Below the pieces are notes generated by a model. That model worked only from the letters and a program-made list of their open reading frames with translations, had not been told where the DNA came from and made no database searches. A stretch of 64,000 bases of DNA. Origin: a virus. Lineage: Duplodnaviria > Caudoviricetes. The stretch is taken from IMG/VR virus record IMGVR_UViG_3300011008_000041, positions 1-64,000 of that record; one strand, given 5' to 3'. This document shows positions 13,635-36,987 of the stretch, one piece after another (within the stretch, counting starts at the first letter, position 1; every line of letters begins with the position of its first letter). The position numbers and the translations under genes were made by a program.

Positions 13635-14193
13635 ACTTCGCCTCCATCTTCTCGATGAATGCATCGACCTGAGCGGTGACCCAGTCCTGGACGGTCTCAT
13701 AGCCCTCGGCCTCGATGTACCTCTGTAACCGCAGGAACTTGTCATCCGGGAGTCGCCCCGCAACACGGGCTGTATACCTATGTCTGCCGCTCCGGTGCTT
13801 TTTCGTCGGCGTGGAAGCGGTCTCATGAGGCGGCGCGGGTTCATCTTCAATGCGGGTCACTCCCGATCCTCCGCAGGGCGGGAGGGGTGGCGCCGGCTCT
13901 TCGGCTGGCACGTTGGCAATGTTGTCCCGAAGAATGGCAAAACCGCCAGGATGAAGTACACAGCCGTACAGGTTCGGCCGGGTGCATTTCGATACGACGG
14001 TTTTATCCAACTTCGGATAGTGTGATCGCAGAAGCCTCGTCGCGTCCTTGGGCGTCAGAGAAGCCGCGTTGATCGCGCCTCTCAGGTCATACCGTTTGAC
14101 AGCGGCATCGAACTCTGCTAAGATGTCTGTGGGTTTACTAGCCTTGGGGTCGTTGTGTGCCAGCACAGCGGCCTCGTTTTCTTTTGTGATCAT
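13621..14193 (-). CDS. hypothetical (possible DNA-binding) protein
   Basis: Coupled ORF; C-terminal RHH-like segment. Confidence 0.6.
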   Translation of the reverse strand: MITKENEAAVLAHNDPKASKPTDILAEFDAAVKRYDLRGAINAASLTPKDATRLLRSHYPKLDKTVVSKCTRPNLYGCVLHPGGFAILRDNIANVPAEEPAPPLPPCGGSGVTRIEDEPAPPHETASTPTKKHRSGRHRYTARVAGRLPDDKFLRLQRYIEAEGYETVQDWVTAQVDAFIEKMEAKYGAD

Positions 14194-14639
14194 GCGATAT
14201 TCTCCTGACTGATGTTGTCCATAGCCTCGAACACCGCGGCCAGCTCCGAGAGCGCCCGGTATTTCGCCTTGAATGCCTCAAGCTCTTCCAGCGCGTTCGT
14301 CAGAAGTGCCTTGCGCAGTTCCTCGTTGCTCATGGCCGCATAAAGGGTCGTGTAGCCCTTTTCCGCATGAACGAACTGTCGGACCGGCGTATCGTCCGCG
14401 GCCTCCTGGACAGTAATGTTTCGGATGATGTACTGTGCCTGCACAGTGCGAAATCGCTCCGCAGCGACACGATCATCCCACTCGAACAGAGCGTGAAGCG
14501 GAGCGTCCTCCGCACGGCTGGCATCAACCACCGCCTGCGGTGTCAGTGTCCCGTCCTTGCTCTGGTCCCTGATGCGGTTCAGCTCGGCGACCGCCGTTTG
14601 AACCGGTACCTTCATCGGGATCTTCCATTGATAGGTCAT
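14190..14639 (-). CDS. conserved protein immediately downstream of the GGY-NN array (putative accessory factor)
   Basis: Strong RBS (agaaaggagg); LTPQAVVDASRAEDAPLHALFEWDDRVAAERFRTVQAQYIIRNI motif. Confidence 0.8.
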   Translation of the reverse strand: MTYQWKIPMKVPVQTAVAELNRIRDQSKDGTLTPQAVVDASRAEDAPLHALFEWDDRVAAERFRTVQAQYIIRNITVQEAADDTPVRQFVHAEKGYTTLYAAMSNEELRKALLTNALEELEAFKAKYRALSELAAVFEAMDNISQENIA

Positions 14640-14678
14640 TGGGGTTTCCTCCTTTCTTTCAGATTTGCTCTTCACGGC

Positions 14679-15819
14679 GCGCCTAAACTAGCCGTGCCTC
14701 GGCGACCCAAACCACGCCTGCCCATCCGCTCCGGACCGCACCACAACGCATCATTCCAAACCACGCCTGCCAAACCGAACCCTTCCGATCCCATCCGCAC
14801 CGGACCTAACCTTGCCTGCCATACCACGTCCACCCTCGGCTCTACCGACCTCGCCATCCATGCCTGCCAGCCTTGCCATTCCGTACCGCGCCGAACCTTG
14901 CGTCAACGCGCCATGCCGAGCCGCGCCTGCCATAACGTTCCCTTCCGGGCCCAACTCTGCCTTGACAAGCCATGCCAGCCAGTCCACACCTGAGCATGCC
15001 GTTTCCCACCGGAACTGACCTCGCCTTGCCCGCCATGCCTCACAGATCCAAAGCGAACACTACCGAAGCCAACCATGCCCGCCGCGCGTAGCCACCTCGT
15101 ACCGTAACTAGCCTCAGCAAACCGGGCCTGCCATGCCCAGCCATGTCCCGCCTTGACGTTCCGAACCTGAACGGACCATGACTGCCAAACCGCCCGTGCC
15201 GTACCGGGCGCAGCCTACCCGGACCATGCCAGCCGTACCGTACCAAAGCCCACCACAACAAGCCGTGCCATGTCACACCGGAACTGCCTTGCCTGGACGT
15301 GCCTGACCTCGCGTCGACTTTCCACGCCTAGCCTAGCCTGGCAAACCGTACCGAAGCTCATCCAACCGGAACCAACCGAGCCCCGCCTAAACCCGCCTGT
15401 CATATATGTACCGAGCCCAGCCCCGCAAAGCCGTTCCACAACTGGCCCTTCCTTGCCTGCCGCACCGAGCCTTTCCAGACCGTGCCTAGCCCCAGCGAAG
15501 CATGCCCCGCCTGCCGCACCGAGCCGAACCTTGCCAAACCCCGCAAGACCCAGCCTAAACAGAGCGAACCGTGCCTTGCCTGCCTTGCCGGACCTAGCCG
15601 GGACAAACCGGGACTTGACACACCTAGCCTGCCGGGCCATTCCACGCTCTGCCACGACGCACCGCTCAGGACCACGCCATTACGTGACTTGCCTTGCCTG
15701 CCAGTCCATGCCATAACGAGACGCGCCAAGCCCCGCCATCCTTACCCTGACCGCCGTACCGAACCAATCCAGAACGGGCCCAGCCAAACCGGAACATGAC
15801 TTACCCAGCCGTGCCTGTC
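14679..15819 (-). ncRNA. array of about 21 putative guide RNAs built from GGY-NN pentamers (VIPR-like)
   Basis: Strict 5-nt periodicity (plus strand NN+RCC-like triplet), broken every 8-13 pentamers by a 4-nt unit (tgcc/agcc/cgcc; GGCAGGC on minus). Starts 7 nt after the RAMP stop; no credible ORF. Confidence 0.85.
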
Positions 15820-15825
15820 GCGGAA

Positions 15826-16494
15826 TTACTCGATATGAAACATTCCTGACTGCCCGGATTTCTCGACACGCCACTCACCGATGCCGCAGACCATCCCGGC
15901 AGCGTTGATCATGTTCACGATATTCTCCAGGGAATACTGGCCGTTCTTGTTGTATTTCAGGATCACGTCTGTGCTCCAATTGCGGAACTCGCCGCGGTAA
16001 CGGAGATCGGCGGTGCCAAGGCCGACTTTGACCATATCCTCGCGCATGATCGGGGGGTCGCTAATGATCTCCAGCATGTCGAGGCCGCTATCCCCGAGTT
16101 GGCCGACGCCGTACAGGAAGAACGCACCCTGCAGGGAGACCTTGTCCTTCGACCACCCCATACGATAGGCGGCGCTTATCGCAGCCTTTTTGAGTCCGAC
16201 CACAGGGAAACCAAACCGGGCACCCTTGGCGATGGCCTCCTCAAACGCCTCCTCGGTCATTTCCGTGGGCTTCTCGGTGAGCCAGTACATGGAGTTGATG
16301 AAATCCTCGACGGGGTTCTTTACGGGCTTCTTCTTGCCCTTCGCGAGGCCCATCTGCGCCTCCAGCATCTGCCGCTTGGCCTTCTCGCTCCAGCAGTGGA
16401 CGATCAGGGGCGTGTCACCGACGATATGAAGGGTGACCTGGGCCATGTCCAGAGGGCGAACTTCAACGATCTCATCATTCTTCTTGGTTGCCAT
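15826..16494 (-). CDS. stand-alone Cas7/RAMP-like protein (Vipr-like), 222 aa
   Basis: RBS+ATG at 16494; VTLHIVGDTPLIVH strand, FGFPVVGLKKAAISAA helix (cf. IPGSSLKG), C-terminal Gly loop GMVCGIGEWRVEKSGQSGMF. No other cas genes in the window. Confidence 0.8.
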   Translation of the reverse strand: MATKKNDEIVEVRPLDMAQVTLHIVGDTPLIVHCWSEKAKRQMLEAQMGLAKGKKKPVKNPVEDFINSMYWLTEKPTEMTEEAFEEAIAKGARFGFPVVGLKKAAISAAYRMGWSKDKVSLQGAFFLYGVGQLGDSGLDMLEIISDPPIMREDMVKVGLGTADLRYRGEFRNWSTDVILKYNKNGQYSLENIVNMINAAGMVCGIGEWRVEKSGQSGMFHIE

Positions 16495-17479: not shown

Positions 17480-17707
17480 TTAGGCGCATTTATGCGACTT
17501 TTGAGACAAAAAAATAGCGATTGCTTCATCCGTGGTCAGATCCAGAACTTCGCACATCTTATGTATGTCCCTTATCTGTAGGCGACCGGAATTCAGGCGT
17601 CTCCTTAAAGTTGCGCGATCAATGCCCAATTCTTCTGCCAAGACCTCTTGAGTGATTCCACATTCAACGATTTTTGCCTGCAATTTCTTTATATCGATTT
17701 GATACAT
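17480..17707 (-). CDS. Cro-like HTH regulator
   Basis: ITQEVLAEELGIDRATLRRRL HTH; divergent from the repressor. Confidence 0.85.
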   Translation of the reverse strand: MYQIDIKKLQAKIVECGITQEVLAEELGIDRATLRRRLNSGRLQIRDIHKMCEVLDLTTDEAIAIFLSQKSHKCA

Positions 17708-17870: not shown

Positions 17871-18206
17871 ATGACTACAGGCGAACGGATCAGAGAGCGA
17901 AGAAAGGCTATAGGTATGTCGGCAGATACTCTTGCCGAGAAGATCGGTCTGTCAAGGTCTACCATTTTCCGTTACGAGAACGGTTTCATTGAGAAAATGC
18001 CAATAGAAAATCTGGTGCCAATAGCGCGAGCCCTCCGAACGACTGTTGGCTATTTAATGGGATGGGAAGAAGAAGCACCCATCACCGGCGCCGATGATGA
18101 GTGCGAAAAAGAAGCTATGCAATATTTTGAGGCTCTTTCAGAGACTCGCAAGGCCGAGGCTCTGAATTACCTTCGATATCTTGCAGTGAACGAAGATAGA
18201 AAATGA
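17871..18206 (+). CDS. CI-like XRE repressor (no obvious S24 peptidase domain)
   Basis: MTTGERIRERRKAIGMSADTLAEKIGLSRSTIFRYENG. Confidence 0.9.
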   Translation: MTTGERIRERRKAIGMSADTLAEKIGLSRSTIFRYENGFIEKMPIENLVPIARALRTTVGYLMGWEEEAPITGADDECEKEAMQYFEALSETRKAEALNYLRYLAVNEDRK

Positions 18207-28989: not shown

Positions 28990-30060
28990 CTATGCGGCTT
29001 TCGGCATGGCCATACTGTGTTCCCTCACAACATCTTTCAGCACCTTCGCACTTATTGGGTCGAAATACTTCACCCGGATATTGTAAGAGTTGCAATGCTT
29101 GAGCTGCCCCGCACGGGATAGGAGCCCTGACGCAGAGTGGAAGGGTATCTTCCTGCCCTCGTCGATCATGCGCTGTACGCGCCGGCACTGCTGGGCATAG
29201 CGAAGGAAGTTCCTGCGGCGGAGTGTTGTATGGGAATGGTAGAACCGGAATCCGACAAAATCAATGCCGCGGGCATCGACCGGGAACACCTGCCAGTTTT
29301 CTTTCAGGCGCAGGCCGAGGCCAGAGAGGAACGCGGCTATGGACTTCCTGGCCTTGTGGAGCAGCTTTTTGTTCGGCCCCATCAAAACCATATCGTCCAT
29401 GTTCCGAGTGTAGTATTTCACCCCTGGGAGCGTGCAGATATGACGATCCAGCGGTTCCAGATAGAAGTTCGCCAGCCATTGGTTGATATAGAAGCCAATG
29501 GCGAGCCCGCCGTCTGAATTGGAGGTCATGATATCGTACACGGTTTTCAGGAATAGCTTATCCTTGATCTTCCGGGCCAGCGCCCAGATCAGACGCCGTG
29601 GCGAGATTGAAGGATAGAAGTGCTTGATGTCCATCTTCAAGCAGTATTTTGTGCCCTTATGGTCATTCCGCAGGGCACGGCGTACATAGTTCATGGCGCA
29701 TTTGTTCCCGCGTCCGGGGATGGATGCGCAGGACCAGCGGTACATACCACGCATGAGGATGTCTTCCATGGCCATTACGCAAAGTTGGTGCATAAGACCG
29801 TCAGGATAAAACGGTACGATCTGTATCGTTCTCTCCTTCATGCAAGTACGATCAAATATCACCTTTGATCGAGGCGTGGTTGGGATATAGGAGCGTGTCA
29901 TCAGCATTTCATAGGCTTGATCGACATAGCTTTCCTCGTCGGCCAGCACGATCTTTACATCCCAGCGATTACGCTTTCCTCGTGTCCCTTCGCGGATAGC
30001 GGCGCGGATCATGTCCTTGTCACACATCCGCTCATAGATGTGGCCCACTCTATGGGGCAT
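28990..30060 (-). CDS. DGR reverse transcriptase (356 aa)
   Basis: RBS aggagg before ATG 30060; CLKMDIKHFYPSI, GLAIGFYINQWLAN, YYTRNMDD, GIDFVGF. Confidence 0.95.
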   Translation of the reverse strand: MPHRVGHIYERMCDKDMIRAAIREGTRGKRNRWDVKIVLADEESYVDQAYEMLMTRSYIPTTPRSKVIFDRTCMKERTIQIVPFYPDGLMHQLCVMAMEDILMRGMYRWSCASIPGRGNKCAMNYVRRALRNDHKGTKYCLKMDIKHFYPSISPRRLIWALARKIKDKLFLKTVYDIMTSNSDGGLAIGFYINQWLANFYLEPLDRHICTLPGVKYYTRNMDDMVLMGPNKKLLHKARKSIAAFLSGLGLRLKENWQVFPVDARGIDFVGFRFYHSHTTLRRRNFLRYAQQCRRVQRMIDEGRKIPFHSASGLLSRAGQLKHCNSYNIRVKYFDPISAKVLKDVVREHSMAMPKAA

Positions 30061-30180
30061 AGGGCATTCCTCCTTGTTTGCCTCAAGGCCGTTCGAGAGT
30101 GAACCTACTAAGCCCTGTCCTGACGGCAAGATTTTTACCGAGCGGTATGGACTTATCTGCGCACGTGTGCGTGAGAAAAC

Positions 30181-30317
30181 AAGGTGTCGGGAGCCGAGGT
30201 TCGCGTTGGTGTTCGAGGCCGCGTTGTTGGCGTTGAAGTAGAAGAAGCCATAGTTATCGTTGCTGTTATAGTTGCCGCCAACGTTCAGCGCTTGGTCGCC
30301 GGTGTTCGAGTTGACGT
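30181..30317 (-). repeat. DGR template repeat (TR), 137 bp
   Basis: Aligns without gaps to 30574-30710; AAC-rich; 15 of 16 mismatches are at TR adenines. Confidence 0.95.
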
Positions 30318-30533
30318 GAACACCCAGCAGAACGGGCTCGCATGGCGCAAATAATCCCGCAGGGGATGATAGCACACATTCTGCTGGTACGCTTGAAAAT
30401 GGAAAAGGTTTACACACAGGTGTCGGTGTATTACGCCAAGCGTAATTTTTGAATTTTATAAAACGTGGGGCTCCGCCCCACACCCCGGTTAAGGGGTGCA
30501 TACGAGGACGGAGCCACAGCGTTTTAACGAACC

Positions 30534-30561: not shown

Positions 30562-33500
30562 TTAGGGGATATAAAGGAGTCGGGAGCCGAGGAACGCGCT
30601 GGTGTACGAGGCCGCGTAGTAGGCGCTGAAGAAGAAGAAGCCAAAGTTATCGTCGCTGAGATAGACGCCGCCAACGTTCAGCGCTTGGTCGCCGGTCTTC
30701 GAGTTGACGTAGTCTGGGACATACGTACTCGCAGAGCCTCCCGACGCTGCATCAGGAATGAAGGCGTACGGGCACTCTTCGCTGTAACCAAAGCCAGTAA
30801 TATACTGTGAAGACGGGAGTGTAATACCCGTCTCAACGAGTGCACTCTTGTTATCGGCAAACGAGGCATTGTCCAGACTGGTGTATACCGCTCTGCTGGA
30901 TGCCATAAAGCCATCCACCCAGTCACGCACGTTACTGAACGGATCCTCGACCCATCGGTACTGGTTATGTGCGCCATTGAGTTTCAGCGTGTGATACGCC
31001 GCGCCGGTCGTGCCGCCGCAGTTGCTGATCGAACCCGTATTCCAGCCCGTTCCAAGAGTATTCTGGCTATGGAAGTTGGCAAACTCGACCAAGTAGAGCA
31101 TCTGCAGAGCCGACCACGAGGCAATGTCCAGCATGTACCAATTCGTACCCTTGTTATGGGAGTAGGTGCGGAAGTTGGTACGGGTGGTGTTCACCAACAG
31201 TGCCGCACCGGATTTGGAATAGACCGCCGAGGAATCACCGGAAGTATGGAAGCGGCCAATATACCGCCCGGAGCCGGGATGCTTCACAAAGCCGGTCTTT
31301 GCAGTCGGCGAGATTGCCCACATCCACTTGCTGTTTGCGGTGTCCTTATAGGCGGTGTAGTAGAACTCCGGGATGTAGACCACGGTATCGTAGTCCGTTT
31401 CCGAGAAGCCTGCGTCATCTTCGGAATAGGAGATTGCACCGTCGATGACGTTGTACCGCTTCATGCCGCTCCACGGCAGGATGTTGTCAAACGGAGAGGA
31501 GCCGGATCCAGCAAGGGACGTGGCCGGCGAAGGATCGGAGAACGAGGCCGCAAGGCCGAGCCTTGTGAGGGCGGGGCTGGAATTGGCGTAGTTCCATTCG
31601 ACGCCGTATGCGCCGTCTGCGCTGGTGGCGGTGGGAACCTCCACATTGCTTGCCGCCTTGAACTGCGCGTAGCAGGATGTATTGGCGGTGATGTTGGTGT
31701 TGCTGGGGTTCCAACCGATGAACGTGCCACCGTTGGGGTCAACAGGGGTCTCTCCGGTATAGTTTGCGGTGCCTCCCGAAGTGACGCCCGTAACGGTCTG
31801 CAAAAGGGTCGTGCCATTGTAGAAATAGACCGTGTACGTCACGATGTACGACGCTGTGTAGGTGGCGTTGCCAGTAACTGTGGTGACTGTCGGTGTCCAC
31901 CCCTGGAACGAACCGCCGCCCGACACCGGATTCTGAGGCGTGGAGCCGTTATAGGTGGGCGTCGCACCATACGGGACGTTGGTATCGGTCTCAAGCGTGG
32001 TGCCGTCGCTGTTCTTCCAAGTAATCGTGTACGTCCGCACCGTCCAGGAATAGGCCGCGTAAACGGTACGATCCTCCAGGACGTTGGTCGTGCACCCGCT
32101 TTCCGCTGTCTGCTGGTCCTGCTGAGTGTTCCAGCCAACAAACGAATAAGAGTACTGCGCAGTCGAACTTCTGGTGGGGGCGGTCGGCGCGCTCTCCTGC
32201 GGGACGCCATCAATGCAGGTGACAGTCTTCAGCGTCGAGCTGCCGTCATAGGTCTTGTAGGTCAGGTAACTTGTGGTGTGATCAGCCGTCACGGACAGAT
32301 AGGGATAAGCCTCAAGTCTGGTGTTGATCGCGGCGAGTTCGGCTCCTGTGAGGGAGCTGGTATGAATGGTGCCGGACACCTGGGCCGTGTCCATGTTGTT
32401 GCCATATTCATCCAAGCCGCGCATTACATCGAGCTTGTCGAGCAGGGCGTTGATCTCCGTAGCACCCGCCGCTTCCCACGCAAGCCCAATCAGACGCACA
32501 CGGGAAGCCGCAGGGATCGCGTTCAGGATTGCCTTGCTGTTAACCGCCGAGCTGACGTTCTCCAGCCACAAAGTAGAGATATTGGAGTAAGACGGGATGG
32601 TAAAATCCGCAATCGCCGTCTGATTGCGGATGGTCAGGTTGGTGATCGTAGAAGGAAGATGCAGCACTTTCAGAATGCCGCCGTTCGGAAGATCAATACC
32701 GGTGATGACCGTGCCGTCGAAGTACACGTTCTCGATGTTGGCGCAACCCGAGATATCCACCGACTTCATATCGCCAGTGCCAAGGCCGGCGCAGTTACGC
32801 ACATCCAGCGTGCGGAGCAGGGTGTTATTGCCAAGGTACAGCTCTTTGAGGTTGCCGTTGGAGTAGGATCCGGAACTATCGCCGAGCTTGATGCTCTGCA
32901 ACTTTGTGGCCATGCTGAAATCAGCAAAGCCGACTTTCAAACCAGAGAGGTCACCCACGGCCGCAAGCTGAGACGCAGAGTAGATGTAGATTTCGGTATC
33001 GTTCACGTTATCCAGCGGGCAGATAAGCGTGTATGCCTGATTGCGCGTGGCGCGGGTCTGCACGAGGTAAGAGCCGTACTTCACCGAGGCGTACACGTCA
33101 GCATACGGGGTAACGGTGATGTTCGACTTCGCGTAGCCGCGGAGCTGGATCACGTCGCTCTGTGCGTCGCCGGCGTTGTACTTCGAGTCGATGTAGCGGA
33201 AGCGGTTGTAGAGCCACCATTTGCGCTGTTCGGCCTTCGAGCCCTGCAGCATGGCGAGATACGCGCCGGAGCCGTCCTCGACCAAAGGTGCAAGGTATTT
33301 GAACCAGGCGTCTTCATTGAAGACTGCCTCGCCCCATTTCTCCTGGTGTTCCTCAAACGCGGTCTCGACCCTCGCATACGACAGCGCCCCGCTCGAGCGA
33401 AGCGTCTGATACATAGCCTTGATCTCGTCATAGAAGGCCTGACGCATGTTGATCCAGAGGACAGACTGCTGACCATTGAAGACATCTGCGCCGCCCGTGA

Positions 33501-36500
33501 TGGTGTCGATATCCTCCAGGTTGTAGGAGAAAACGAGAGCGCCCTCGTTGTTGATACCAAGGGCGGTATCGAAGTCGTAGGGGAGCCAGCACCATTTATC
33601 GCCGCTGAGCTGGGACGGGAAAGCGTTCTTTGCGCGGCTGTCGACCATCAGGAAGAGCTCGGTGAACAGGTAGTAGAAAATCGTACTGTCCATCTCCATA
33701 TGATCTGCGGCCTCGGCCTTAAACTTCGCCAGCCGGTACGCCGCTGTATCATTGGTGTAGGTAACGGCATCATCGCCGGTTCCGTAGGTAACAGCGCTCG
33801 GCAAGGCGTTGCCGGTCGCCGCGCTCTGATCGGTGGATTTCAGCCACGTTGCTAGTGCAGAGAGCTTTGTTGCGTCGGTATAGGCCGGGTCGGTATCAGG
33901 GTAGCGAGCCTCGAAGTCATTGAGCCATCCATCCCCCGTGTAATCATCACTCTTCCAGAGTACGCGATCGCTGGTGTTGTTCTTGATCTCCCACGACTCG
34001 TCGCCGGAAATAAATCCGAACACTTCTTCGGTGCCCTTATCATTATTGAAGTTGTATTTGCCGAGGAACGTTGTGGTTTCGCCGTTGCTCCAGAAGATGA
34101 CGCACGGGAAGCCGTCGATGCCTTGCCTGACGGCACTGTTCTGCTCCTGTGGCGGCGTCTTGTACGGACAGGCGTCGTTGTAGAGGATCGCCAGCTCGAC
34201 GTTGTTAGCGCCCTCAGAGCTTGCCACGTCAGCTTTCATACAAAAAGCGTTGGTAGCAATAGCGCCCGGGCGCAGGGAGTATGCGCTTGCCAGAGTGCCG
34301 CTGTTCAGCAGGAAGCCGCCCTTGAATTTCAACTTATAGTTCTTCCGGGCGTAGTACTGCGAGGACGTACCTTGGACATCAGCCTGGACATTCGTGGCCG
34401 TGAAGCTCTTGGAGGGAGTGACCGGGTCAACATAGGTAACAGCTACCGTCCGTTTATCGCCCTTGTACTGCGGGAGCTCGTCGCACTCGATTATCATGTA
34501 AGGAAGATCGCTGGGAAGCTGTGCGATCACCACATTCCCATAGGCATCGTAGATGCTGTTGCGGTTATACCGCGCAATCATGTCATCCACGTTCTGGCTG
34601 TCGGCAATCCAGTTTTCAAGCACCTGATAGCGAGTCAGGTCGTTGTCATAGATGCGAATGCGGTACACGTCGATGGTGCAGTCATTGGAGCCGATGGAAA
34701 TGCCGACCGGGGTGGTCTGTGCGAAGTCATCCGAGGCCGGATACTGAACCACGCCGCTCATGATGCCGTTCACATAGATATACAGCAGGCGGTTTTCGCT
34801 GCGCTTCTCAGCCACGAAAGCCAGCCGGACGTGCTCGTTCTCCTTATACTGCATGCTGATCTCCGACTGCTCGGAGGTCAGCGTCGCTTTCTGTGCCGTC
34901 ATGGACAGGCCACGACCACCGGAGAGACAGGACAGGATCACGGCATCGTAATTCATGACGTCCCGCGTGGCAAATTCGACCTCGATGGTCTTGCCGGTTC
35001 CGCGGAAGTCGGAGCCGAAGATCTGATAGGGAATCGTGACGCGGGCGTCGCCCGCCACACGCAGGACGGTAACGCCGTCCTCGTCAAGCAGCCAGCCGTC
35101 CGAGGAGAAGTTGAAGCCCGTCATGGTGGCAGCAATGTTGTTGTCGCCGTCCGTCCATGTGCCGGGATTTGCCTCGTTGTTACTGCGTCCCACACTGGAC
35201 AGATGAAGCACAAGGTTCTGGGTTTCAGCTTCTACGTTGATATCGCTCTCGGTGATCGTTACCGTGATGGTCTTCCGCGCGGTTCCGGATGCAATAACAA
35301 CCGTCAGGCTCCCCGCCGTGTCTGCGCGATATGCGAACACCTGTTCCGTGCGGTCTACCGTCTGCTGGGAGACCTGAGAACCGTTCACAGAGATCGTTGC
35401 AACCGCCGTCAAGGACGTTGGATCATACACGGTATATCCGATGTTCAGCGTACTGTACTGGATTGCTGTGCTCTTGTTGAACGAGGATACGATGATCGGA
35501 GTATTGTTCAGCGCTTCAAGGCAGATGATCTCGTAATACAGGTGGTTGGACTCAACCGACTCACCGTTGATTACGCAGTCGAAATAGCACTCAAGGGTGT
35601 GCGCTCCGTGGGACTGCTGCGGGATCGTGTAGGTCATCTGTCTGCCGGATACCGAGGTTGACGCGGTTCCGATCTCCCTGCCGTCCAGCAGGAAGCGCAC
35701 TGTCTTCTGCACCTCGCCAACCGGCGTGTACGGGAAGCTGATCGCGCCCTGATACGGCGTGGAGGCGTCAAAGGTCGAGCTGATCGAAACAGCGACCACC
35801 GTAACGGAGAAGTTGATGGTCCGGCTGTTGTCGTATACGTCGCTGATTGTGACCTTGATCACGTTGGCGCCGGAGGAACAGTATGCAGCAAGGTCGATGT
35901 TGACCGTGCCCTGCTGGATGTTCAGCATGGCCTTGACCGCGCCGTTTACGGTGATCTTCGCCGTTCCGTCACCCGTGGGCATACCGTCCTCCTCGGAGGA
36001 CCAGACAACCGTGATGGGAGCTGTGCCATCCTCGGCAATGGTCTTCGAGAGCCAGCCGGTGTTGTTGGTGACGCTGAGGGACGCGGTATTCCCGGATGAC
36101 CCGCCGCCACCACCGCCAGAGCCCGAGAAGGGGCCAAGAGGACCGGCCACGACTTCGCCATTCGACGTCAGATAGAGGTAACCGTTATCGACATAGGCAT
36201 CATCGACCTTGCCCTCGATCACCAGCTGCATAGCCGCGTCGCTGCGCCGAAGGGCGGCAACAGCGTTATTCAGTTCGGCAACCTCGTTCTCCGCGTTGTT
36301 TGCCGCGGACAACGCCTGTGCTGCCTTGGTATTTGCGTCAGTCGTGATGTTGGCGATTGCCTGCGCCTTCTCATCGATCTGCTCAATGGCATCGTCAATC
36401 TTCTGATCGAGAGACGTTTCTTTTCTCTCGATATAGACAATGGCGGCATTCTTTGCCGCTACAGCATCGTCCGCAGAGCCCTCCGCGTTTGATGCAGCTG

Positions 36501-36987
36501 TCTCCGCACGGGTAGTCAGCGCCGCGATATCCGCGACCGCGTCCTCTGCCTGCTGACCAGCGGCAATGATTTCGGCGGAATTATCCAGCACGTTCACGAG
36601 CTCGCGGATGACGGACTCCGACGCGAGGGTATCCTTATCCAGCGCGGCGCGTTCGATATGCAGGACGAAATTGGCGGTGTTCAGCTCCTTCCCGTTGTTG
36701 AACAGGGTGAGTTCAAAAACGCCGTGCCCCGCAGCCGCCGTCATCTGCTGATCACCGGTAACGGTGACTATGGCGTTGGCCACATCCACCGTGGCATTGA
36801 CGGAATACCCGTTGCCATCCGGCTTTGTGCCTCGGATTTGAGCCGTGGTTCCACTCTGGATTGTGAAATTCCCCTGACGGGAAACCAAATGAATACGGAG
36901 GCTGAAATCACTGTCGTACTGATTCAGCCTCCGCTCCACTTTCGCCCCGCCCGGAACCATGTCCAGGTCAAATGCGTGAATGATCAT
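30562..36987 (-). CDS. 2141-aa tail fibre/receptor-binding protein, DGR target
   Basis: BppU-like N-terminus, CotH-kinase-like middle, LRR-like segment, InlB-B-like repeats, C-terminal C-type-lectin-like domain carrying VR. Confidence 0.9.
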   Translation of the reverse strand: MIIHAFDLDMVPGGAKVERRLNQYDSDFSLRIHLVSRQGNFTIQSGTTAQIRGTKPDGNGYSVNATVDVANAIVTVTGDQQMTAAAGHGVFELTLFNNGKELNTANFVLHIERAALDKDTLASESVIRELVNVLDNSAEIIAAGQQAEDAVADIAALTTRAETAASNAEGSADDAVAAKNAAIVYIERKETSLDQKIDDAIEQIDEKAQAIANITTDANTKAAQALSAANNAENEVAELNNAVAALRRSDAAMQLVIEGKVDDAYVDNGYLYLTSNGEVVAGPLGPFSGSGGGGGGSSGNTASLSVTNNTGWLSKTIAEDGTAPITVVWSSEEDGMPTGDGTAKITVNGAVKAMLNIQQGTVNIDLAAYCSSGANVIKVTISDVYDNSRTINFSVTVVAVSISSTFDASTPYQGAISFPYTPVGEVQKTVRFLLDGREIGTASTSVSGRQMTYTIPQQSHGAHTLECYFDCVINGESVESNHLYYEIICLEALNNTPIIVSSFNKSTAIQYSTLNIGYTVYDPTSLTAVATISVNGSQVSQQTVDRTEQVFAYRADTAGSLTVVIASGTARKTITVTITESDINVEAETQNLVLHLSSVGRSNNEANPGTWTDGDNNIAATMTGFNFSSDGWLLDEDGVTVLRVAGDARVTIPYQIFGSDFRGTGKTIEVEFATRDVMNYDAVILSCLSGGRGLSMTAQKATLTSEQSEISMQYKENEHVRLAFVAEKRSENRLLYIYVNGIMSGVVQYPASDDFAQTTPVGISIGSNDCTIDVYRIRIYDNDLTRYQVLENWIADSQNVDDMIARYNRNSIYDAYGNVVIAQLPSDLPYMIIECDELPQYKGDKRTVAVTYVDPVTPSKSFTATNVQADVQGTSSQYYARKNYKLKFKGGFLLNSGTLASAYSLRPGAIATNAFCMKADVASSEGANNVELAILYNDACPYKTPPQEQNSAVRQGIDGFPCVIFWSNGETTTFLGKYNFNNDKGTEEVFGFISGDESWEIKNNTSDRVLWKSDDYTGDGWLNDFEARYPDTDPAYTDATKLSALATWLKSTDQSAATGNALPSAVTYGTGDDAVTYTNDTAAYRLAKFKAEAADHMEMDSTIFYYLFTELFLMVDSRAKNAFPSQLSGDKWCWLPYDFDTALGINNEGALVFSYNLEDIDTITGGADVFNGQQSVLWINMRQAFYDEIKAMYQTLRSSGALSYARVETAFEEHQEKWGEAVFNEDAWFKYLAPLVEDGSGAYLAMLQGSKAEQRKWWLYNRFRYIDSKYNAGDAQSDVIQLRGYAKSNITVTPYADVYASVKYGSYLVQTRATRNQAYTLICPLDNVNDTEIYIYSASQLAAVGDLSGLKVGFADFSMATKLQSIKLGDSSGSYSNGNLKELYLGNNTLLRTLDVRNCAGLGTGDMKSVDISGCANIENVYFDGTVITGIDLPNGGILKVLHLPSTITNLTIRNQTAIADFTIPSYSNISTLWLENVSSAVNSKAILNAIPAASRVRLIGLAWEAAGATEINALLDKLDVMRGLDEYGNNMDTAQVSGTIHTSSLTGAELAAINTRLEAYPYLSVTADHTTSYLTYKTYDGSSTLKTVTCIDGVPQESAPTAPTRSSTAQYSYSFVGWNTQQDQQTAESGCTTNVLEDRTVYAAYSWTVRTYTITWKNSDGTTLETDTNVPYGATPTYNGSTPQNPVSGGGSFQGWTPTVTTVTGNATYTASYIVTYTVYFYNGTTLLQTVTGVTSGGTANYTGETPVDPNGGTFIGWNPSNTNITANTSCYAQFKAASNVEVPTATSADGAYGVEWNYANSSPALTRLGLAASFSDPSPATSLAGSGSSPFDNILPWSGMKRYNVIDGAISYSEDDAGFSETDYDTVVYIPEFYYTAYKDTANSKWMWAISPTAKTGFVKHPGSGRYIGRFHTSGDSSAVYSKSGAALLVNTTRTNFRTYSHNKGTNWYMLDIASWSALQMLYLVEFANFHSQNTLGTGWNTGSISNCGGTTGAAYHTLKLNGAHNQYRWVEDPFSNVRDWVDGFMASSRAVYTSLDNASFADNKSALVETGITLPSSQYITGFGYSEECPYAFIPDAASGGSASTYVPDYVNSKTGDQALNVGGVYLSDDNFGFFFFSAYYAASYTSAFLGSRLLYIP
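30574..30710 (-). repeat. DGR variable repeat (VR) at the 3' end of the tail fibre gene
   Basis: VNSKTGDQALNVGGVYLSDDNFGFFFFSAYYAASYTSAFLGSRLL vs TR VNSNTGDQALNVGGNYNSNDNYGFFYFNANNAASNTNANLGSRHL. Confidence 0.95.

What the first reader, a model, noticed from the sequence alone, without database searches (positions are those of the whole stretch)
15634..15698. Guide spelling an SNF2/DEAD-like helicase motif V (GITLTAAGTxVFF)
NN string GG AT AC CT AC GC GC GG AC AT GT TT TT reads G-I/M-T-L-T-A-A-G-T-I/M-V-F/L-F/L. This matches the GITLTAAxTxVF motif of the SNF2-family helicase found in polA/DUF2815 phage replication modules. It is the third independent guide pointing to that module.
Basis: partly seen in the sequence, partly recalled or inferred. 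Interest (0 to 1): 0.8.

Follow-up and report, generated by a model that had tools for sequence, protein, structure and literature searches.

The report
Phage VIPR guide against rival's helicase
This 69-base stretch is one guide RNA of a phage-borne VIPR system (a CRISPR relative described in 2026 that reads two bases and skips one), and it matches the DNA coding for a conserved helicase motif in a rival prophage almost perfectly; it is a clear new example of an already known kind of phage-against-phage weapon.

Summary
Bases 15634-15698 are 13 five-base units (GGY+NN on the minus strand), and the NN string is as reported. The stretch is guide 3 of about 20 in a 1.14-kb staggered VIPR vrRNA array. 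The array lies directly 3' of a vipr gene, whose family profile finds only the solved SUSP1 Vipr in the PDB (E 9e-10).

Read by the published 1-nt-skip rule, the guide matches 27 of 28 read bases (13 of 14 NN), in frame, with wobble bases skipped. The site codes for LGITLTAAGTMVFY, motif V of a 417-aa SNF2 helicase. That gene is in the replication operon of a 71-kb provirus, also found in an Oscillospiraceae MAG. Shuffled guides reach at most 21/28 on that provirus, and the phage's own genome reaches 18/28.

The claim that three guides converge on one module does not hold. The target provirus has PolA but no DUF2815. The SNF2 genes of the phages hit by the polA and DUF2815 guides match only 15-18/28.

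VIPR, staggered arrays and codon-phased targeting are already published. This scan has also found VIPR guides against SNF2 motifs on other genomes, and has already identified VIPR in this genome. This is a new member of a known kind.

The parts
15630..15698 (-). The vrRNA guide in question. It has 13 GGY-NN units plus a terminal GGCA unit that shares the G at 15629 with the next guide (14 NN in all).
   Evidence: It matches 27/28 bases of an SNF2 helicase motif V coding site in provirus G001.
14678..15815 (-). Staggered VIPR vrRNA array of about 20 guides. Guide lengths are 5n-1 nt and the junctions are mostly GGCA|GG.
   Evidence: It is the only such array in the 72-kb phage genome.
15826..16494 (-). 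vipr gene (222 aa), a RAMP/Cas7-like protein. It ends 10 nt upstream of the first parsed array unit.
   Evidence: Sequence and profile hits to the SUSP1 Vipr structure 36pp (E 3e-5 and 8.8e-10). AF2 model with pLDDT 81, whose top Foldseek hits are Cas7/Csm3. 31 homologues in IMG/VR; a GGY-NN array was detected directly downstream in 27 of them.
14190..14639 (-). Candidate vap (accessory) gene, 149 aa, directly after the array.
   Evidence: Gene call on the identical ENA contig. No Pfam hit; phrog_15946, function unknown. Its role is inferred from position only.
14858..14927 (-). Neighbouring guide that decodes to PolA motif A (FIVADFSAIEA). Context only.
   Evidence: More than 111 exact 11-unit matches in IMG/VR. 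The gene carrying the match is PolA in L127.
15231..15284 (-). Neighbouring guide that decodes to the DUF2815/Enc34 SSB N-terminus (VVNPTKVITG). Context only.
   Evidence: 0 exact hits, but 18-20/22 bases in 11 of 80 polA-hit loci. The gene is PF10991 in L127.
17480..17707 (-). Cro-like HTH_3 gene at the head of the operon that holds vipr. The divergent cI-like HTH_3 gene lies at 17916-18206 (+).
   Evidence: Pfam marks on the gene calls of the identical contig L190.

Best explanation
Bases 15698->15630 on the minus strand are one guide (vrRNA) of a staggered VIPR array carried by a temperate, Bacillota-type siphovirus. By analogy with the characterised SUSP1 and P. fulva systems, Vipr protomers would each bind one GGY and present the 14 NN dinucleotides. 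These NN pair with the sense strand of the DNA coding for motif V (LGITLTAAGTMVFY) of an SNF2-family helicase, with every wobble base skipped. The helicase gene is the second gene (after a sigma-factor-like ORF) in a same-strand replication gene block (helicase, DUF7307, unknown, PolA, deoxyribosyltransferase-like, primase) of a 71-kb provirus found in an Oscillospiraceae genome. Binding there would block transcription of the rival's replication genes. Because the guide reads only codon positions 1-2 of a catalytic motif, synonymous drift does not break the match, and escape would cost helicase function. The phage itself has no SNF2 helicase, so it cannot hit itself. Shown here: the guide anatomy, Vipr homology, the target match and its significance, and the absence of self-targeting. 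Inferred: expression and processing of the RNA, binding, silencing, a shared host, and the operon reading of the target gene block.
For: Anatomy of the guide and array. Published rule (GGY/NN, 1-nt skip, wobble alignment, staggered arrays with 1-nt overlap, transcriptional silencing): bioRxiv 10.64898/2026.04.26.720920; filament, triplex and the 5' leading edge: 10.64898/2026.04.26.720927. Vipr homology. Family-wide link of vipr and array. Target: the 10-unit exact pattern finds 3 identical 71,205-bp proviruses. Extended, it matches 13/14 NN and 27/28 bases, in frame. The gene has SNF2-rel_dom and Helicase_C, and the site aligns with motif V of SsoRad54 and CHD1L, followed by motif VI. The same site is in an Oscillospiraceae MAG and in two ENA assemblies. 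Null tests: 200 shuffled guides on G001 give mean 18.1 and maximum 21; the reversed pattern gives 0 viral hits; all non-helicase hits of the same 10-unit pattern reach only 20-22/28. Homologous helicases at 52-84% aa identity still match 21-25/28, and within the footprint identity to G001 is 0.82/0.95/0.40 at codon positions 1/2/3. Self: best match 18/28, no SNF2 or Helicase_C domain in the phage.
Against: No expression, processing or binding data exist for this locus. The 5'-most NN (AA, target TA) mismatches in every sampled homologue. The target lineage is rare in the databases: essentially one provirus sequence. A shared host is not shown. No DNA of this phage and no Vipr were found in the target's MAG, and no Vipr was found in 401 genomes of its order. 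Only one of about 20 guides hits this provirus. No minus-strand promoter was found by a simple scan.
Confidence: 0.85

Rival explanations
1. It is a real guide, but the provirus found here is only a relative of the true target. The true target would be an unsampled phage or a bacterial SNF2 gene (for example a defence-system helicase) that codes VFF and matches 28/28.
For: The 5'-terminal NN mismatches in all nine sampled homologues, which all code FY. The full 13-unit pattern has no exact match in any collection.
Against: The 10-unit exact pattern found no other helicase among one genome for each of 185,579 species or in the metagenome contigs. 27/28 passes the published threshold of at least 80% NN match. 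In the published structures the 5' end is the last part to engage, so a mismatch there is probably the least harmful; this last point is inference.
Confidence: 0.08
2. The guide acts on the helicase mRNA as an antisense RNA rather than on DNA.
For: The vrRNA is complementary to the sense strand, as are the polA and DUF2815 guides. NN composition of the whole array fits the antisense reading. Vipr filaments can hold an RNA target strand.
Against: In the characterised systems, targets lie on both strands, silencing works on either strand, and the stabilising triplex needs DNA. Sister arrays do not show the same composition bias. Three of three in one orientation is weak evidence (p = 0.25).
Confidence: 0.04
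3. The match is chance, or the unit is a decayed, unprocessed remnant without function.
For: Several units have imperfect GGY (GTC, GTA, TGA, AGC). There are no expression data.
Against: With uniform base frequencies, the expected number of sites with at least 27/28 matches in 596 Gb, both strands, is about 1e-3 (my calculation). Given a 10-unit match, the chance that the flanks add 7 of 8 bases is 4e-4. The hit fell in the protein family that was predicted beforehand. Internal GGY degeneracy is described as common in vrRNAs. The locus is 100% identical on an independent ENA assembly contig.
Confidence: 0.03

Closest known systems
VIPR systems with staggered vrRNA arrays (bioRxiv 10.64898/2026.04.26.720920, text and fig. 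S18 legend)
   Same: A vipr RAMP gene is followed by GGY/NN pentamer repeats. Guides have 9-16 units. Adjacent vrRNAs overlap by 1 nt (here the GGCA|GG junctions). A small accessory gene follows the array. The system is phage-borne. Targets follow the 1-nt-skip rule with the skip base on the wobble position.
   Different: Which of the seven published types this locus belongs to could not be determined. The array is long, about 20 guides in 1.14 kb, against about 150-700 nt in the 27 sister loci where an array was detected. Processing of staggered arrays has not been shown for this clade.
Type II VIPR of Escherichia phage SUSP1 and the Pseudomonas fulva prophage (same preprint; structures in 10.64898/2026.04.26.720927; biology in 10.64898/2026.10.15.759431)
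   Same: The Vipr C-terminal region, including the G-loop (CGxGxWRP), aligns with SUSP1 Vipr (PDB 36pp). The guide reads codon positions 1-2 of an essential, conserved gene of a competing element, the same escape-proof logic shown for the satellite recombinase.
   Different: Only about 80 of 215 profile positions align. There is no separate structured 3' tail per vrRNA; the guides abut each other. The target is a replication helicase of a full-size prophage of Clostridia, not a satellite recombinase or a lysis-lysogeny regulator.
Class 1 CRISPR Cas7 backbone with crRNA (for example Csm3, type VII Cas7)
   Same: The predicted fold is RAMP/Cas7-like, and the top Foldseek hits are Cas7-family subunits (E about 1e-4). 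One protomer binds each repeat of the guide.
   Different: There are no CRISPR repeats, no cas1/cas2 and no nuclease. The guide is noncontiguous (2 read, 3 hidden in the RNA; 2 read, 1 skipped in the DNA).

Membership tests
VIPR system | A Vipr protein homologous to characterised Vipr, with a RAMP fold and G-loop | tested here: met
   phmmer against SUSP1 Vipr 36pp gives E 3.1e-5. The 18-sequence profile finds only 36pp, at E 8.8e-10. The AF2 model has pLDDT 81, and its top Foldseek PDB hits are all Cas7/Csm3/Cmr RAMPs.
VIPR system | Tandem GGY-NN pentamer repeats next to vipr, 9-16 units per vrRNA | tested here: met
   The array at 14678-15815 (-) starts about 10 nt after the vipr stop. This guide has 14 units. 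Guide lengths in this array and 9 sister arrays are mostly 44-79 nt, that is 5n-1. A GGY-NN array was detected directly after vipr in 27 of 31 sister loci.
VIPR system | A natural target that obeys the 1-nt-skip rule with at least 80% NN match, with skip bases on wobble positions | tested here: met
   13/14 NN (93%) and 27/28 bases match, in frame with the helicase ORF, and every skipped base is a codon third position.
VIPR system | No self-targeting by the guide | tested here: met
   The best match in the phage's own 72,096-bp genome is 18/28, at the shuffled-guide level. The phage has no SNF2 or Helicase_C domain.
VIPR system | Staggered array: adjacent vrRNAs overlap by 1 nt | tested here: met
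   Junctions are 4-nt units, GGCA|GG in at least 53 of about 80 junctions across 10 arrays. The overlapped 14th NN (AG) also matches the target codon CTC, though the chance of that match alone is 1/16.
VIPR system | A vap accessory gene of a known vap family | tested here: inconclusive
   A 149-aa gene follows the array. It has no Pfam hit and falls in phrog_15946, function unknown.
VIPR system | vrRNA is expressed, processed, bound by Vipr, and silences the target | not testable with these tools
   This needs sRNA-seq, pull-down and reporter assays.
SNF2-family helicase (the target gene) | SNF2-related N-lobe plus Helicase_C; the site lies in motif V, just before motif VI | tested here: met
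   PF00176 at 9e-25 and PF00271 at 2e-12. The alignment to 1z63 and 7otq places GITLTAAGTMVFY on GINLTSANRVIHF and GMNLTAADTVIFV, followed by the QA..R..R.GQ motif.
   PF10991 was not found in the complete G001 record, while the positive control G405 scored 1.5e-77. PolA is present. In four phages hit by the polA guide, three of which also carry sites for the DUF2815 guide, the SNF2 genes match this guide at only 15-18/28.

The most novel reading that the evidence does not exclude
The roughly 20-guide array is a deliberately broad anti-replication arsenal. Each guide is tuned to an invariant catalytic motif of a different replication protein family (PolA motif A, Enc34-type SSB N-terminus, SNF2 motif V). 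One phage that lacks all these families could then silence whole classes of unrelated rivals at once: the polA guide alone has more than 111 exact sites in IMG/VR. The guides appear to be uniformly antisense to the target mRNAs, which would point to a strand rule not seen in type II VIPR.
Probability: 0.3. Interest if true: 0.5.

Novelty: new member of a known kind. Interest (0 to 1): 0.3.

Why it matters
The finding gives a concrete natural guide-target pair for a VIPR clade that has not been studied experimentally: a staggered array in a Bacillota-type temperate phage. It links two uncultured phages as probable competitors. It also shows the published codon-phased, escape-resistant targeting logic applied to a replication helicase motif. 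It could serve as a ready-made test case for staggered-array processing and for mismatch tolerance at the 5' end. It does not change what is known about how VIPR works.

Tried and rejected
- Full 13-unit exact pattern: 0 hits in viral, genome and metagenome contigs. The 3'-shifted 10-unit pattern (units 4-13) also gave 0 hits, because the target codes FY, not FF.
- blastn of the locus against GenBank phages: no match. Rfam: nothing at the array. TRF sees only fragments of the array.
- Protein-coding reading of the array: rejected. The period is 5 nt, not 15, there are phase slips, and only short overlapping ORFs of at most about 150 aa, in several frames, cross the array.
- TRAP-like ring-binding RNA, G-quadruplex tract or reverse-transcriptase template were my first guesses. 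I dropped them once Vipr homology and the target match were found.
- Other guides against provirus G001: none above the null. Guides of 31 sister arrays against G001: none.
- Host link: no DNA of this phage and no Vipr in the target's MAG. No Vipr in 3 genomes of its family or 401 genomes of its order.
- Promoter scan: nothing on the minus strand.
- Trace of templated guide origin: I compared the Y of each GGY with the target's skipped base by eye and saw no relation.
- Strand-bias test from NN composition: suggestive for this array, not for sister arrays, so left as inconclusive.

Full report
**1. What is in the sequence**

The + strand at 15634-15698 consists of 13 units of two variable bases followed by RCC. 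On the minus strand these are GGY-NN units.

The stretch lies in an intergenic tract of about 1.15 kb (14676-15825) between two minus-strand genes. This tract has a strong 5-nt period: lag-5 identity is 0.46, against 0.24 in a control region. It is the only such tract in the window. The phase slips by one base every 44-79 nt.

A Viterbi parse divides the tract into about 20 blocks. Most blocks end in a 4-nt unit GGCA that runs straight into the GG of the next block. The block in question runs 15698->15630: 13 full units plus GGCA. If the G at 15629 is shared with the next block, there is a 14th NN (AG, which is CT on the + strand).

**2. What kind of element it is**

Earlier notes of this scan on the same genome pointed to VIPR systems, so I read the three preprints.

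- bioRxiv 10.64898/2026.04.26.720920 describes phage-borne Vipr RAMP proteins with vrRNAs of 9-16 GGY/NN repeats. Only the NN bases pair with DNA and one target base is skipped per unit. In natural targets the skipped base falls mostly on the codon wobble position, and binding silences transcription. Some systems have 'staggered arrays' in which neighbouring vrRNAs overlap by 1 nt.
- 10.64898/2026.04.26.720927 gives the structures. One protomer binds each repeat, an R-loop triplex forms, and unwinding advances towards the 5' end of the vrRNA.
- 10.64898/2026.10.15.759431 shows that reading codon positions 1-2 of an essential gene prevents escape by mutation.

I tested membership directly.

- The 222-aa protein at 15826-16494 (-) hits the solved SUSP1 Vipr (PDB 36pp) at E 3e-5.
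- A profile of 18 homologues finds only that chain in the whole PDB, at E 8.8e-10, and the alignment includes the G-loop CGxGxWRP.
- An AlphaFold model (pLDDT 81) has Cas7/Csm3-type RAMPs as its top Foldseek hits.
- IMG/VR holds 31 loci with a homologue at 34-68% identity. A GGY-NN array was detected directly after vipr in 27 of them.
- Across this array and nine sister arrays, the junction GGCA|GG dominates and block lengths are 5n-1 (44, 49... 79 nt).
- A 149-aa gene of unknown family follows the array, in the position of a vap gene.

The locus is therefore a VIPR system with a staggered array, and the finding is its third guide.

**3. The target**

The full 13-unit pattern has no exact match in the viral, genome or metagenome collections. 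The first ten units (GG..AT) find three viral records, which are identical 71,205-bp proviruses.

There the guide matches 12 of 13 units, and the preceding codon CTC also matches the overlapped 14th unit. In total 13 of 14 NN and 27 of 28 bases match, in frame, and every skipped base is a codon third position. The only mismatch is in the 5'-most unit (guide AA, target TA; the codon is TAT, Tyr, where the guide spells Phe/Leu).

The gene codes for a 417-aa protein with SNF2-rel_dom and Helicase_C. The site, LGITLTAAGTMVFY (residues 338-351), aligns with motif V of SsoRad54 (1z63) and CHD1L, and motif VI (QA..R..R.GQ) follows it.

The neighbouring genes run in the same direction: a sigma-factor-like ORF upstream, then the helicase, DUF7307, an unknown 258-aa protein, PolA, a deoxyribosyltransferase-like protein and a D5-type primase.

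The same site occurs in one bacterial genome, an Oscillospiraceae MAG (contig WRHM01000001.1 = Ga0082212_10000002). The identical helicase protein is encoded in two ENA assemblies, and the one whose DNA could be read carries the same site.

**4. Is the match more than chance?**

- On the provirus, 200 base-shuffled guides reach a mean of 18.1 and at most 21 of 28. The real guide reaches 27.
- The reversed pattern finds nothing in the viral collection.
- The same 10-unit pattern also hits ten genome contigs and twelve metagenome contigs in unrelated genes: an Acidobacteriaceae protein family, a Dehalococcoidia family and two single contigs. These are natural decoys. Their flanking units do not match, and they stop at 20-22 of 28.
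- With uniform base frequencies, I calculate about 1e-3 expected sites with at least 27/28 matches in 596 Gb, both strands.

**5. Breadth and self-avoidance**

Nine further viral contigs carry homologues of the helicase. The guide matches those at 62-84% protein identity at 22-25/28 (25/28 in five of the six), and those at 52-53% identity at 21-22/28. Within the 42-nt footprint, identity to the best target is 0.82, 0.95 and 0.40 at codon positions 1, 2 and 3. This is the published codon-phased logic.

The phage's own genome (72,096 bp, direct terminal repeats) gives at best 18/28. It has no SNF2 or Helicase_C domain at all.

**6. The 'third guide on one module' claim**

Sliding every register of the array over the provirus shows that only this guide hits it. 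The provirus has no DUF2815/Enc34_ssDNA-bd gene, while a positive control scored.

The guide at 14927-14858 (FIVADFSAIEA, PolA motif A) has more than 111 exact sites in IMG/VR. In 11 of the 80 fetched loci, the guide at 15284-15231 matches the NPTKVITG start of the SSB at 18-20 of 22 bases, which is above the null. One such locus is a classical DUF2800 / Enc34-SSB / PolA / VapE module. So those two guides do converge.

I checked four of the polA-hit phages, three of which also carry DUF2815-guide sites. Each has an SNF2 helicase, but it matches the present guide only 15-18/28 (motif V in one of them reads HGLNLQAGGSILVW), which is background. The SNF2 guide is therefore aimed at a different lineage.

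**7. Likely biology (inferred)**

The phage is a temperate siphovirus. It has a large terminase, portal, HK97-type capsid, tape measure, a CHAP+GH25 endolysin and a serine integrase, and its portal is closest to phages of Bacillota.

vipr lies downstream of a cro-like HTH gene that faces a divergent cI-like gene. It is therefore probably an early lytic gene, deployed at infection or induction.

The closest cultured phages with the target helicase infect Thermoanaerobacterium and Faecalibacterium. This fits a Clostridia host for both parties, but a shared host is not shown.

A Vipr filament bound inside the helicase gene would be expected to block transcription of the helicase and, by polarity, of the PolA and primase genes behind it.

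**8. Verdict**

The main interpretation is correct, and the convergence claim is not. The system, its code, staggered arrays and escape-proof targeting are all published. This scan had already identified VIPR in this genome and had found SNF2-motif guides in other genomes. This is a well-supported new member of a known kind.

Noticed in passing
A single vrRNA may therefore cover a very wide range of PolA-bearing phages.
   Followed up: partly
window 28990-30501 (-), 30070-30147 (-), 30562-36987 (-): A reverse transcriptase (RVT_1) has an RT-18 RNA motif (Rfam RF03021, 72.9 bits) inside the 5' part of its over-long ORF. Next to it is a 2141-aa protein with a CotH-like domain. This is probably a diversity-generating retroelement acting on a tail or receptor-binding protein.
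   Followed up: no
GenBank phages, e.g. NC_031249.1:32729-33319 (Gordonia phage UmaThurman gp39), NC_051648.1:37379-37963 (Mycobacterium phage Donkeykong gp49): Homologues of this Vipr (28-38% identity, E 1e-16 to 1e-34) are annotated as hypothetical proteins in 34 cultured phages, mostly actinobacteriophages. I did not check whether they have arrays.
   Followed up: no
L012-L016, L018, L021, L177, L179, L180 and others: A conserved Acidobacteriaceae protein (..YRAAGMTLTAAGTIYF.KDDD..) matches ten units of the guide exactly but nothing beyond them. It is a useful natural decoy, and it shows that 10-unit exact hits alone are not evidence of targeting.
   Followed up: yes
window 14678-15815 (-): The NN composition of this array fits codon positions 1-2 only if the vrRNAs are antisense to the target mRNAs (position 1 G 0.33, position 2 G 0.11). 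All three guides with identified targets have that orientation. Sister arrays do not show the bias. N1 is C-poor (0.08-0.11) in all arrays, which may be a structural constraint.
   Followed up: partly
L190 (ENA ERZ3810914 NODE_226, 30,490 bp): A second assembly carries the vipr-array-vap locus at 100% identity over 2,305 bp, so no guide turnover can be seen between the two records.
   Followed up: yes
window 15342-15457, 15183-15230, 14817-14927 (-): A few blocks of the array have irregular phase: a 116-nt block with an ATA-TA / TGA-CA interruption, and short 9-11-nt blocks. These may be decayed guides or junction variants.
   Followed up: no
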